Source of the DNA: Escherichia coli
GTDB taxonomy: Bacteria; Pseudomonadota; Gammaproteobacteria; Enterobacterales; Enterobacteriaceae
Length of the DNA stretch: 64,000 bases
Assembly (NCBI RefSeq): GCF_044324785.1
Contig: NZ_CP172127.1
Strand: one strand, 5' to 3'
A program made the position numbers and the translations under genes. Under the pieces are notes generated by a model. It ran no database searches and was not told where the DNA came from. It worked only from the letters and a program-made list of their open reading frames with translations. Below, piece by piece: positions 60,659-62,318 of the stretch; within the stretch, counting starts at the first letter, position 1; the number at the start of each line of letters is the position of its first letter.

Positions 60659-61309
60659 TTAATTTGATTTATTCGCATCCATCAGCGCTTTTAACTCCTC
60701 CGGCGTAAACGGTGGTTTGCGTCGGTGCAACATCGCATGGCAATTAGGGCACACAGGAAGCAAATCATTAACTGGATCCAGCTGGTAATCCTCTTTAATG
60801 GCTGAAAGCGGCACCAGGTGATGCACATGGATAAAGCCTTCAGCGATATCACCATAGATCTTCACCAGATCAACGCCGCATACGTTGCACTGGCATCCAT
60901 GATGTTCGACCGCTTTATCTCGGGCCTTTTTATCGCGTTCATAGCGGTTTACTGTCACCTTTATCGCCGCACCTTCAACGTATGTCTCCTGCGACGGCAA
61001 CTCATCCGGGAACAGAACGTCGGCTATGGGAGCCGCAGCGGCTTTATCCTGATGAATATGAAATCCCTGCTCTATGAGTAGTTTGACGCATTTAGATTTT
61101 ATTCCGCCGGTGAAATCCGCAGGGGTAAATTGCGTCCCCGTCATCAATGTCGCTGCGATGCCAGCAATCGCCTTCGAGGGGTAACGTCGGCCATGATATT
61201 CAATCTCATACAACCGCGCAGGCTGGAACTGATGAGTTTCTCCCGCATCCCATAAATGGATAGCTTCGATGATATACCGCCGCGGAAGATGATCGGGGAG
61301 TTTATTCAT
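60659..61309 (-). CDS. HNH-nuclease domain protein with N-terminal ~110-aa domain of unknown function (McrA-like architecture; candidate modification-dependent restriction enzyme)
   Basis: 216 aa; C-terminal HNH/His-Me finger CQCNVCG ... HVHHLVPLS ... N ... CPNCHAMLH; AAGGA Shine-Dalgarno; divergent from the neighbouring HNH gene. Confidence 0.6.
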   Translation of the reverse strand: MNKLPDHLPRRYIIEAIHLWDAGETHQFQPARLYEIEYHGRRYPSKAIAGIAATLMTGTQFTPADFTGGIKSKCVKLLIEQGFHIHQDKAAAAPIADVLFPDELPSQETYVEGAAIKVTVNRYERDKKARDKAVEHHGCQCNVCGVDLVKIYGDIAEGFIHVHHLVPLSAIKEDYQLDPVNDLLPVCPNCHAMLHRRKPPFTPEELKALMDANKSN

Positions 61310-61445
61310 GGAGAATGTCCTTATACGTTCTCAGAACAGGCAGCAAAAAAACAAATGAGATCAAGGTAATATATCTTCAGTTGCAGGCTTGAACAGCAGA
61401 AAATTTGCGAGCATGATCGCAATTATTTCACTGCCAGGGATATCA

Positions 61446-62318
61446 ATGGCTTCCAGTAAATCGCTACAGCAGGCAATTGCCAATATAAAAATCTGGCACA
61501 AGGGTGAACAGCGCGCGCCGCATAAGCCATTGTTATTGCTATACGTATTAGCGGGATACCTGAATGGACATCCGCGCCTTTTCGATTATGGCTCGGAAAT
61601 CTACGAACCTCTGCACAGTTTACTGGAACGTTTTGGGCCACAGCGTTCACAGTACCGACCTGATATGCCGTTCTGGCGATTACAAGGCGACGGATTCTGG
61701 CAATTACACAATGCCGAGCTTTGCTCAACAGGAGGGAGCAGCCGACAACCACCAGTGAAGGAACTGACTGAATACCACGTTGCAGGCGGTTTCGATGAAC
61801 AGCACTACGCCCTGGTAACTGGCAATAAAAAACTCATCAATACTCTGGCGCAACAGATACTCGAAGCGCACTTCACCGAGAGTATTCAGGAAGAAATTGC
61901 TGACGAGCTGGGTTTTGATCTCCAGCAAATCCGTAAACAGCGCGACCCGTTATTTCGCAAAAATGTATTACGCGCTTATAAATACCAGTGCGCGATATGT
62001 GGCTTTAATATGCGCCACGACGACACCACCGTCGCGCTGGAAGCGGCGCATATAAAATGGAAACAGCACGGCGGTCCTTGTGAAATTCCTAATGGCCTGG
62101 CGCTTTGCGCAATTCACCATAAAGCCTTTGATAAAGGATCGATTGGCCTGGATGAAAATATGCGGGTACTGGTCTCGGATGCGGTAAACGGCGGAGGGAT
62201 CGTTGAGAAACTATTCTGGGATTTTGACGGGAAAACTATTGCGTTGCCACAGGTGCGTAAAAATTACCCTTTTGAGGGGTTTGTGGAGTGGCATCGAAAA
62301 GAGGTTTTTAGGGGGTGA
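61446..62318 (+). CDS. Second HNH-nuclease domain protein (HNH_2-like CxxC...AAHI...HH motif) with distinct N-terminal domain
   Basis: About 290 aa from ATG 61446 (AGGGA Shine-Dalgarno; the ORF track extends to a TTG at 61389); motif YQCAICGF ... ALEAAHIKW ... N ... CAIHHKAFD; N-terminal PHKPLLLLYVLAGYLNG ... PFWRLQGDGFWQL block unassigned. Confidence 0.6.
   Translation: MASSKSLQQAIANIKIWHKGEQRAPHKPLLLLYVLAGYLNGHPRLFDYGSEIYEPLHSLLERFGPQRSQYRPDMPFWRLQGDGFWQLHNAELCSTGGSSRQPPVKELTEYHVAGGFDEQHYALVTGNKKLINTLAQQILEAHFTESIQEEIADELGFDLQQIRKQRDPLFRKNVLRAYKYQCAICGFNMRHDDTTVALEAAHIKWKQHGGPCEIPNGLALCAIHHKAFDKGSIGLDENMRVLVSDAVNGGGIVEKLFWDFDGKTIALPQVRKNYPFEGFVEWHRKEVFRG

What the first reader, a model, noticed from the sequence alone, without database searches (positions are those of the whole stretch)
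60659..62318. Divergent pair of HNH-nuclease genes with unassigned N-terminal domains downstream of nanS
Two genes transcribed divergently from a short shared intergenic region each encode a C-terminal HNH/His-Me finger (CQCNVCG...HVHH...CPNCH and CAICGF...AAHI...CAIHH) fused to a different N-terminal domain of about 110-150 aa. This mirrors McrA/ScoMcrA-type type IV enzymes, where the N-terminal domain reads a DNA modification. Two such genes beside an McrBC-like system suggest a stacked modification-dependent restriction island; the N-terminal domains may recognise distinct modifications.
Basis: partly seen in the sequence, partly recalled or inferred. Interest (0 to 1): 0.6.

Follow-up and report, generated by a model that had tools for sequence, protein, structure and literature searches.

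The report
Two stacked HNH restriction nuclease genes
Next to nanS this E. coli carries two back-to-back DNA-cutting defence genes: one belongs to a known family that destroys foreign DNA carrying sulfur (phosphorothioate) in its backbone, and the other is an uncharacterised relative whose sensor domain has no known target. The locus is real and sensible, but mostly already catalogued.

Summary
Gene A runs 60659-61309 on the minus strand (216 aa). Gene B runs 61446-62318 on the plus strand (290 aa). They diverge from a 136-bp spacer between nanS and an McrBC-like pair, and each ends in an intact HNH motif.

Both N-termini can now be assigned.
- **Gene B** is a full-length member of NCBIfam NF045808, "phosphorothioated DNA-binding restriction endonuclease" (437 bits, cutoff 180). 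Its N-terminus is the ScoMcrA sulfur-binding domain (SBD) with the pocket residues H-K and M-P kept. It is 76% identical to E. coli W/LY180 WP_000199891, whose SBD binds Rp-PT DNA and which restricts dnd+ plasmids. That protein is very probably EcoWI.
- **Gene A** joins the ScoMcrA "head" domain (Pfam PF26345) to a McrA-like zinc HNH. No function is known for the head. It recurs in type IV-style proteins alongside EVE, SRA, McrB-N, NOV_C and McrB-like ATPase domains.

The A-B pair recurs as a unit in Citrobacter and Klebsiella, but each gene also occurs alone. The whole arrangement is present in 320 of 5426 complete E. coli genomes.

One new detail emerged. An invariant 18-bp palindrome, TTGCGAGCATNATCGCAA, overlaps the putative -10 of every B-family gene examined.

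Verdict: new member of known kinds, moderate-to-low interest.

The parts
60659..61309 (-). Gene A: ScoMcrA_N (head domain, res 1-90), disordered linker (91-112) and zinc-finger HNH (113-216); 216 aa, 24.3 kDa
61310..61445 (.). Shared divergent intergenic region (136 bp, 40% GC) that holds both promoters
   Evidence: The simple sigma-70 scan found nothing at its threshold. The conserved -35-like TTGA and the palindrome were found by comparison between loci.
61405..61422 (+). Perfect 18-bp palindrome TTGCGA-GCATGA-TCGCAA, 24-41 nt upstream of gene B's ATG; putative operator overlapping the -10 (CATGAT) of the B promoter, with the -35-like TTGAAC at 61388-61393
   Evidence: Invariant arms upstream of every B-family gene held. 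In 17 diverged upstream contexts only TTGA, the palindrome and a short AT stretch are conserved. Of 80 metagenome loci with the exact pattern, 54 have an SBD ORF directly downstream. It is the only TGCGA-N6-TCGCA in the window.
61446..62318 (+). Gene B: sulfur-binding domain (about res 1-170) plus HNH_2 nuclease; 290 aa, 33.1 kDa; predicted phosphorothioate-dependent restriction endonuclease
   Evidence: NF045808 at 436.9 bits against a cutoff of 180. SBD aligns with ScoMcrA 5zmo/5zmm. HNH_2. It is 76% identical to WP_000199891. The RefSeq name in 98.7%-identical genomes agrees.
62381..63757 (-). Neighbour: McrC-family gene (the RefSeq-style start would be about 63691, 436 aa)
   Evidence: NCBIfam McrC E 7.7e-31, below the equivalog cutoff. 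RefSeq annotates 'McrC family protein'.
63688..64000 (-). Neighbour: 3' end of an McrB-family gene, cut by the window end
   Evidence: ORF fragment. The syntenic 684-aa 'McrB family protein' overlaps McrC by 4 bp in strain MB50.
59671..60651 (+). nanS (sialate O-acetylesterase), the conserved chromosomal anchor next to gene A

Best explanation
The locus holds two independent single-polypeptide restriction nucleases. They lie side by side at the nanS end of a variable island that also holds an McrBC-like system.

**Gene B** is a phosphorothioate (PT)-dependent endonuclease of the SBD-HNH (EcoWI/SprMcrA) family.
- Its N-terminal sulfur-binding domain is predicted to dock on an Rp-phosphorothioate link in incoming DNA. 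The conserved H26-K27 and M74-P75 would form the hydrophobic, cationic sulfur pocket.
- Its HNH_2 domain then cuts both strands a few bases away. The protein probably acts as a dimer with Mg2+.
- By analogy with the 76%-identical E. coli W enzyme, the preferred context is probably GpsAAC/GpsTTC. This specificity is inferred. The predicted base-contact loop differs from the W enzyme by a one-residue indel.
- The biological role would be to destroy plasmids or phages that come from dnd+ (PT-modifying) hosts. The host's own DNA is spared because it lacks that mark.

**Gene A** is most likely a second, separately acting type IV-style nuclease.
- A compact, roughly 90-aa ScoMcrA-head domain is tethered by a flexible linker to a McrA-like zinc HNH. 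The head would supply DNA or mark targeting.
- The target is unknown.

What is shown here: domain identities, intact motifs, homology to characterised enzymes, and the recurrence of the pair. What is inferred: the activity and specificity of this B copy, and any activity or target of A.
For: **Gene B**
- It matches NF045808 over the full length at 436.9 bits against a cutoff of 180.
- Its SBD aligns with ScoMcrA residues 95-233. HK replaces HR and MP replaces YP. [quoted passage not shown]
- It is 76% identical to WP_000199891. That protein's SBD binds Rp-PT DNA, and it restricts a dnd+ plasmid (PMC6224610).
- WP_000199891 has a computed mass of 33.41 kDa, which equals the 33.4 kDa quoted for EcoWI. 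EcoWI cuts GpsAAC/GpsTTC at N7/N6, uses Mg2+, is a dimer and restricts dnd+ plasmids in vivo (PMC7461809).

**Gene A**
- The head-domain homology is supported.
- The HNH region aligns with EcoKMcrA through CxxC...HH...CxxCH. These residues are invariant in 26 family members.
- PADLOC hits are to type IV mREase models.
- The head domain occurs in 2989 representative clusters. Its fusion partners include HNH, EVE, SRA, MrcB_N, AspBHI_N, NOV_C and McrB-like AAA_5.
- A's HNH cassette is 58% identical to that of Mrr_N-HNH genes lying next to B homologues in Klebsiella and Enterobacter.
- A occurs alone in defence-type neighbourhoods, for example with GmrSD_N and NACHT genes in Shewanella.
- No methyltransferase or immunity gene accompanies it.
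Against: - No biochemical data exist for this B allele. It differs from the characterised enzyme at 24% of residues, including an indel in the loop that reads bases in ScoMcrA, so its sequence context could differ.
- The head domain has 'unknown function' and is flexibly attached in the ScoMcrA crystal.
- In many proteins the head co-occurs with a bona fide reader such as EVE, SRA or McrB-N. It may therefore be a generic DNA-binding or regulatory module rather than a modification sensor.
- In the closest complete genome (MB50) A is frameshifted. Many E. coli keep only remnants of A or B. Selection on the pair is therefore not uniform.
Confidence: 0.72

Rival explanations
1. A and B form one functional two-gene module. 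The ScoMcrA head (in A) and the SBD (in B) are the split equivalent of the fused head-SBD N-terminus of ScoMcrA. The two nucleases would cooperate on PT-DNA or be co-regulated from the shared spacer.
For: - In ScoMcrA, head and SBD are adjacent in one chain. PADLOC model PDLC03662 matches A at residues 29-92 and B at 94-231.
- The divergent A-B pair recurs with 66-71% (A) and 79-81% (B) identity in Citrobacter and K. aerogenes, in unrelated flanks: tyrosine phenol-lyase and a methyltransferase, or type I RM and Mrr_N-HNH.
- Both genes are also in one ICE, 4 kb apart.
- 12 of 41 metagenomic B loci with enough upstream DNA have A in the divergent position.
Against: - B's characterised homologue works alone as a homodimer and sits alone in LY180.
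- A occurs alone in Shewanella, Pantoea, Atlantibacter, Pseudescherichia and others.
- 29 of 41 B loci lack A.
- ScoMcrA dimerises through its SBD, SRA and HNH domains, not through the head.
- B is equally often next to Mrr_N-HNH instead, which fits stacking of independent enzymes.
- The recurrence is confined to related Enterobacteriaceae and may reflect one mobile cassette.
Confidence: 0.15
2. Gene A is not a modification-dependent enzyme. It would be a non-specific or otherwise triggered HNH effector, for example a toxin-like nuclease kept silent by regulation or an abortive-infection effector, with the head acting as a generic DNA clamp or regulatory domain.
For: - The head domain is fused to nSTAND3 NTPases and is often found together with separate readers. 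It need not be the specificity element.
- No ligand is known for it.
- Truncated SBD-HNH enzymes become non-specific nickases (PMC7461809). This shows that such HNH cassettes are intrinsically unspecific.
Against: - A is a stand-alone gene with no immunity or antitoxin partner in any context seen. A constitutively non-specific nuclease would be toxic.
- The family is large and well conserved, with invariant surface-type residues in the head: Y34, Y43, K46, F66, G68 and G69.
- The closest HNH relatives are type IV enzymes.
Confidence: 0.1
3. The genes are decaying relics of a hotspot and have no current function in this strain.
For: The locus is a deletion and insertion hotspot. Many E. coli retain only a 106-bp A remnant or a 144-bp B remnant. 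K-12 keeps a 248-bp B fragment. A is frameshifted in MB50. In L003 an island has truncated B.
Against: In this window both reading frames are full length, with every catalytic and zinc-binding residue and the conserved promoter and palindrome intact. Full-length A is in 1238 and full-length B-like genes in 1706 of 5426 complete genomes.
Confidence: 0.03

Closest known systems
E. coli W/LY180 'ScoMcrA homolog' WP_000199891 (very probably EcoWI), an SBD-HNH phosphorothioate-dependent restriction endonuclease
   Same: Gene B has the same length (290 vs 291 aa) and the same SBD plus HNH_2 architecture. It is 76% identical. It has the same sulfur-pocket motifs (PHKPLLLL, DMPFWRL), the same HNH motifs, and the same upstream TTGA-plus-palindrome element.
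   Different: - 24% of residues differ, including a one-residue indel in the CSTGGSSRQPP/CSTSGS-RQPP loop, which corresponds to ScoMcrA's base-reading loop.
- The chromosomal setting differs: the nanS/McrBC side of the island with gene A as neighbour, against lying next to the leuX integrase with no A.
- The equation of WP_000199891 with EcoWI rests on strain lineage and matching mass. No published accession supports it.
ScoMcrA (Streptomyces coelicolor; PDB 5ZMM), a head-SBD-SRA-HNH type IV enzyme
   Different: - Here the head and the SBD are in two separate proteins, each with its own HNH.
- Neither protein has an SRA domain.
- B's nuclease is an HNH_2 type closer to TagI's. A's nuclease is closer to EcoKMcrA's.
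EcoKMcrA (PDB 6GHC)
   Same: A's HNH region (res 123-198) aligns with McrA 199-269, including both CxxC pairs and the HH motif. Both are small single-chain N-domain-plus-HNH enzymes without a methyltransferase.
   Different: McrA's NEco 5mC/5hmC-binding domain is absent. A's N-terminus is the unrelated ScoMcrA head.
Mrr_N/winged-helix-HNH fusion endonucleases (wH-HNH MDREs, PMC11037411)
   Same: The HNH cassette is the same: 58% identity to the Mrr_N-HNH genes next to B homologues in K. aerogenes and Enterobacter. The one-reader, one-HNH logic is the same, as is the argument that stand-alone fusions must need a modification to avoid self-toxicity.
   Different: A's N-domain is not Mrr_N. Its similarity to winged-helix folds is weak, Z no more than 3.8.

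Membership tests
SBD-HNH phosphorothioate-dependent restriction endonucleases (NCBIfam NF045808; EcoWI/SprMcrA type): gene B | Full-length match to the family model above its curated cutoff | tested here: met
   436.9 bits against a cutoff of 180; model positions 2-284 of 284
SBD-HNH phosphorothioate-dependent restriction endonucleases: gene B | Sulfur-binding domain with pocket residues equivalent to ScoMcrA H116, R117 (K allowed) and P165 | tested here: met
   The alignment with 5zmo/5zmm places H26-K27 on H-R and M74-P75 on Y-P. Liu 2018 reports that K and M are tolerated. Homologues carry PF26340 DNA-SBD_ScoMcrA.
SBD-HNH phosphorothioate-dependent restriction endonucleases: gene B | Intact C-terminal HNH nuclease | tested here: met
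   HNH_2 PF13391, E 1.3e-9. CAICG, AAHI, PNGLALC and IHHKAFD are all present and identical to WP_000199891.
SBD-HNH phosphorothioate-dependent restriction endonucleases: gene B | PT-dependent cleavage in vitro and restriction of dnd+ DNA in vivo | not testable with these tools
   Shown only for the 76%-identical homologue and for EcoWI (PMC6224610, PMC7461809)
SBD-HNH phosphorothioate-dependent restriction endonucleases: gene B | No dnd/ssp PT-writing cluster of the same specificity in the host | tested here: inconclusive
   No dnd genes appear among the window's ORFs or in the syntenic annotation. Only 64 kb of the genome is visible.
ScoMcrA_N-HNH proteins (Pfam PF26345 + PF01844): gene A | N-terminal ScoMcrA head domain | tested here: met
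ScoMcrA_N-HNH proteins: gene A | C-terminal zinc-finger HNH with CxxC...HH...CxxCH | tested here: met
   PF01844, res 141-197. C141, C144, H161, H163, H164, C187, N189, C190, H191 and H195 are invariant in 26 members.
EcoKMcrA family: gene A | NEco N-terminal 5mC/5hmC-binding domain | tested here: not met
   Only res 123-198 (the HNH region) align with 6ghc. The N-terminus aligns with the ScoMcrA head instead.
ScoMcrA-type single-chain head-SBD-SRA-HNH enzymes: A or B | SRA domain and all four domains in one polypeptide | tested here: not met
   No SRA match in either protein. Head and SBD are in separate genes.
Type IV (modification-dependent) restriction enzymes: gene A | Cleavage requires a modified substrate | not testable with these tools
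   Only contextual support: PADLOC mREase_IV hits, the head domain's fusion partners, and the absence of a methyltransferase or immunity gene.
Homing or colicin-type HNH nucleases: A or B | Best similarity to homing or colicin HNH domains; intron, intein or immunity-gene context | tested here: not met
   PDB hits are ScoMcrA, EcoKMcrA, TagI and SprMcrA-type SBDs only. No immunity gene or intron context.

The most novel reading that the evidence does not exclude
The ScoMcrA head domain is a previously unrecognised reader of a DNA mark. That would make gene A a type IV enzyme of new specificity that complements B. In addition, the invariant TTGCGAGCATNATCGCAA palindrome over the -10 of all enterobacterial SBD-HNH genes would be a dedicated operator through which a conserved host factor, or the enzyme itself, switches PT-dependent restriction on and off.
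Probability: 0.15. Interest if true: 0.6.

Novelty: new member of a known kind. Interest (0 to 1): 0.3.

Why it matters
- **Gene B** adds one more allele (76% identity) to a family already used as a tool (EcoWI-seq). The indel in its putative base-reading loop makes it a cheap candidate for a different PT sequence context.
- **Gene A** belongs to a very large, catalogued but untested family. The head domain is found in about 3000 representative clusters. Learning what that domain binds would annotate thousands of defence proteins, including McrB-like and EVE/SRA fusions.
- **The conserved palindrome** suggests that PT-dependent nucleases are transcriptionally controlled, which has not been described in the papers I read.

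None of this overturns current understanding.

Tried and rejected
- **Sigma-70 and terminator scan of 60500-62500.** It found no promoter at its threshold. Its three terminator-like hits include the palindrome on both strands, which I read as an operator and not a terminator.
- **Rfam over the whole window.** No matches.
- **RNA-hairpin reading of the palindrome.** Rejected as the less likely reading. The arms are invariant with no compensatory change across loci whose proteins are only 50% identical, and the element sits between a fixed-distance TTGA and the start codon.
- **Palindrome as a general regulon site.** About 26 of 80 exact metagenome hits are not next to an SBD gene. They lack the TTGA context and sit in unrelated DNA, as expected for chance matches to a 17-base pattern in a very large collection. 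I found no recurrent second gene family.
- **A as an obligatory partner of B.** Rejected on distribution.
- **N-termini of 69 other proteins sharing A's HNH cassette.** Pfam assigned almost none of them (4 DUF3427), so this gave no support either way.
- **Published accession or sequence for EcoWI.** Not found in the paper or its held supplement.
- **Literature search for PF26345.** Nothing found.
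Full report
**1. What is there**

The ORF table shows two divergent genes.
- Gene A runs 60659-61309 on the minus strand and encodes 216 aa.
- Gene B is listed from a TTG at 61389 to 62318 on the plus strand.
- The conserved start of B, also used by RefSeq, is ATG 61446, giving 290 aa.

The spacer between the two starts is 136 bp at 40% GC. The genes themselves are about 49% GC.

nanS ends 8 bp before the stop of A. On the other side lie an McrC-family gene and the 3' end of an McrB-family gene.

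- Pfam finds HNH PF01844 in A.
- Pfam finds HNH_2 PF13391 in B.
- The two nuclease domains belong to different subfamilies and are not similar to each other.

**2. Gene B**

- **Family match.** NCBIfam NF045808, "phosphorothioated DNA-binding restriction endonuclease", matches end to end at 436.9 bits against a cutoff of 180.
- **Sulfur-binding domain.** The N-terminal 140 residues or so align with the sulfur-binding domain (SBD) of ScoMcrA (5zmo/5zmm, E 6e-7).
- **Pocket residues.** H26-K27 lies on ScoMcrA H116-R117, and M74-P75 lies on Y164-P165.
- **Tolerated substitutions.** Liu et al. 2018 report that Lys is usual at position 117. They report that Y164 varies and that Y164M even improves binding. 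[quoted passage not shown]
- **Characterised homologue.** That paper characterised an "E. coli ScoMcrA homolog", WP_000199891 from LY180. Its SBD binds Rp-PT but not Sp-PT DNA, and the gene restricts a dnd+ plasmid.
- **Identity.** I fetched that gene. B is 76% identical to it over the full length.
- **Likely EcoWI.** LY180 derives from E. coli W (own knowledge). The computed mass of WP_000199891 is 33.41 kDa. This matches the 33.4 kDa given for EcoWI by Lutz et al. 2020. EcoWI is Mg2+-dependent, dimeric, cuts GpsAAC/GpsTTC at N7/N6 and restricts dnd+ plasmids in vivo (PMC7461809).
- **Basis of that link.** The paper and its held supplement give no accession, so the identity of the two proteins is an inference.
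- **Annotation.** RefSeq already names B's orthologues correctly.

**3. Gene A**

- **Pfam.** The installed Pfam recognises only the HNH region.
- **Head domain by sequence.** PDB sequence search aligns residues 24-87 with residues 29-93 of ScoMcrA. A profile of 21 family N-domains matches ScoMcrA residues 4-93 at E 6.7e-9.
- **HNH region.** It aligns with EcoKMcrA 199-269.
- **Predicted structure.** AlphaFold models give a confident alpha/beta N-domain (res 1-90). A disordered linker (91-112) follows, then the HNH.
- **Pfam label of homologues.** They carry PF26345, whose name, ScoMcrA_N, appears.
- **What is known of the head.** Liu et al. describe it as small, flexibly attached and of unknown function.

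The family alignment shows strict conservation in both halves of the protein.
- All zinc and catalytic residues of the HNH are invariant.
- So is a set of head residues: A16, F28, Y34, Y43, K46, A47, G50, A52, P63, F66, G68, G69, C74 and L78.

**4. What the head domain keeps company with**

A profile search of 1.84 billion representative proteins finds 2989 clusters with the head domain. Their architectures vary widely.

| Partner domain in 85 multidomain examples | Members at E <= 0.001 |
|---|---|
| HNH (PF01844) | 38 |
| HNH_2 | 18 |
| EVE | 13 |
| NOV_C | 7 |
| McrB-like AAA_5 | 6 |
| nSTAND3 | 5 |
| DUF3427 | 4 |
| SAD_SRA | 3 |
| MrcB_N | 2 |
| AspBHI_N | 1 |

Foldseek against AFDB50 shows the same picture.

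The head is therefore a common module of modification-dependent restriction proteins. Because it often sits beside an established reader, it need not be a modification sensor itself.

A's HNH cassette (res 97-216) is widespread with many other N-termini. Pfam leaves most of those N-termini unassigned.

The cassette is 58% identical to that of the Mrr_N-HNH genes lying next to B homologues in K. aerogenes and Enterobacter.

**5. Is the pair a unit?**

Evidence that the pair recurs:
- The same divergent A-B arrangement occurs in two Citrobacter genomes. There it lies between a methyltransferase and tyrosine phenol-lyase.
- It also occurs in K. aerogenes, beside a type I RM system and a Mrr_N-HNH gene.
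- In these genomes A is 66-71% and B 79-81% identical to the window copies.
- An E. coli ICE carries both genes 4 kb apart.

Evidence that the pairing is not obligatory:
- LY180 has B alone.
- A is alone in Shewanella, Pantoea, Atlantibacter, Pseudescherichia and others.
- Only 12 of 41 metagenomic B loci with enough upstream DNA have A.

| Feature, at 80% coverage or more | Complete E. coli genomes (of 5426) |
|---|---|
| Full-length A | 1238 |
| Full-length B-like gene | 1706 |
| Whole segment 60400-62600 | 320 |

Many genomes retain only a 106-bp A remnant or a 144-bp B remnant. K-12 retains a 248-bp B fragment.

I conclude that these are independently acting enzymes. They often travel together as a small cassette in a defence hotspot.

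**6. A conserved cis element**

The 18-bp perfect palindrome TTGCGA-GCAT(G/C/T)A-TCGCAA lies 24-41 nt upstream of B's ATG, at 61405-61422.

- It is present at the same place upstream of every B-family gene I hold, including one whose protein is only about 50% identical.
- In 17 diverged upstream contexts, only three things are conserved:
  - an invariant TTGA exactly 12 nt upstream of the palindrome;
  - the palindrome itself;
  - a short AT stretch after it.
- This fits a -35 TTGAnn, a 17-nt spacer and a -10 CATnAT at the palindrome centre. That is the layout of an operator overlapping the -10. This reading is an inference.
- A metagenome scan with the exact pattern returned 80 loci. In 54 of them an SBD ORF lies directly downstream. 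The others lack the TTGA context and look like chance matches.
- The core TGCGA-N6-TCGCA resembles CRP half-sites (own knowledge), but I could not test binding.

**7. Comparison, novelty and verdict**

- B is a new allele of a characterised family and is already correctly annotated.
- A is a member of a large, named but functionally untested family.
  - It is correct for B, with the amendment that the mark is a backbone phosphorothioate.
  - It is unproven for A.
- Neither gene resembles homing or colicin HNH nucleases.
- The most interesting leftovers are the unknown ligand of the head domain and the conserved palindrome.

Overall interest is modest at 0.3. Novelty: new member of a known kind.

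Noticed in passing
window 61388-61422, and upstream of B homologues in L002, L004-L012, L019 and 54 metagenome loci: An invariant TTGA lies at a fixed 12-nt distance from the perfect palindrome TTGCGAGCATNATCGCAA, upstream of every enterobacterial SBD-HNH gene, even where the proteins are only 50% identical. It looks like a promoter with an operator over the -10. The binding factor is unknown; the core resembles CRP half-sites.
   Followed up: partly
L008 4260-6636 (K. aerogenes) and L019 2264-3908 (Enterobacter sp. MGH 24): B homologues are also flanked by a Mrr_N-HNH gene whose HNH cassette is 58% identical to gene A's. K. aerogenes has all three (Mrr_N-HNH, SBD-HNH, ScoMcrA_N-HNH) in a row. 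This suggests reader-domain swapping on one nuclease cassette.
   Followed up: partly
window 60659-62318 compared with E. coli complete genomes; L003 7679-7921: The locus is a decay and insertion hotspot. Many genomes keep only the last 106 bp of A or the first 144 bp of B. K-12 keeps a 248-bp B fragment annotated 'restriction endonuclease'. In L003 a CP4-57-like island (CbtA/CbeA, YeeR) has truncated B. A is frameshifted in strain MB50.
   Followed up: partly
window 6325-17154: The classical immigration-control region, between yjiA and yjiR, holds a second defence cluster in this strain. It comprises a 699-aa DUF262/GmrSD-like protein (PADLOC 'Orf5', E 6e-214), a type I RM system (M 784 aa, S 427 aa, R 1087 aa) and two unassigned ORFs (244 and 237 aa).
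   Followed up: partly
window 62381-64000: The McrC-family protein matches the E. coli K-12 McrC equivalog model only weakly (107 bits against a cutoff of 338). This McrBC-like pair is therefore a divergent system whose McrB N-terminal reader lies outside the window and was not examined.
   Followed up: no
gene B res 93-103 compared with L002 4842-5717: There is a one-residue indel (CSTGGSSRQPP against CSTSGS-RQPP) in the segment that aligns with the region containing ScoMcrA's base-reading SRGRR loop. This could mean a different sequence context from the E. coli W enzyme.
   Followed up: no
window 19226-20182: An Rpn-family (RpnA-like) recombination-promoting nuclease ORF is intact here (318 aa). 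The corresponding gene is split into two partial pseudogenes in strain MB50.
   Followed up: no
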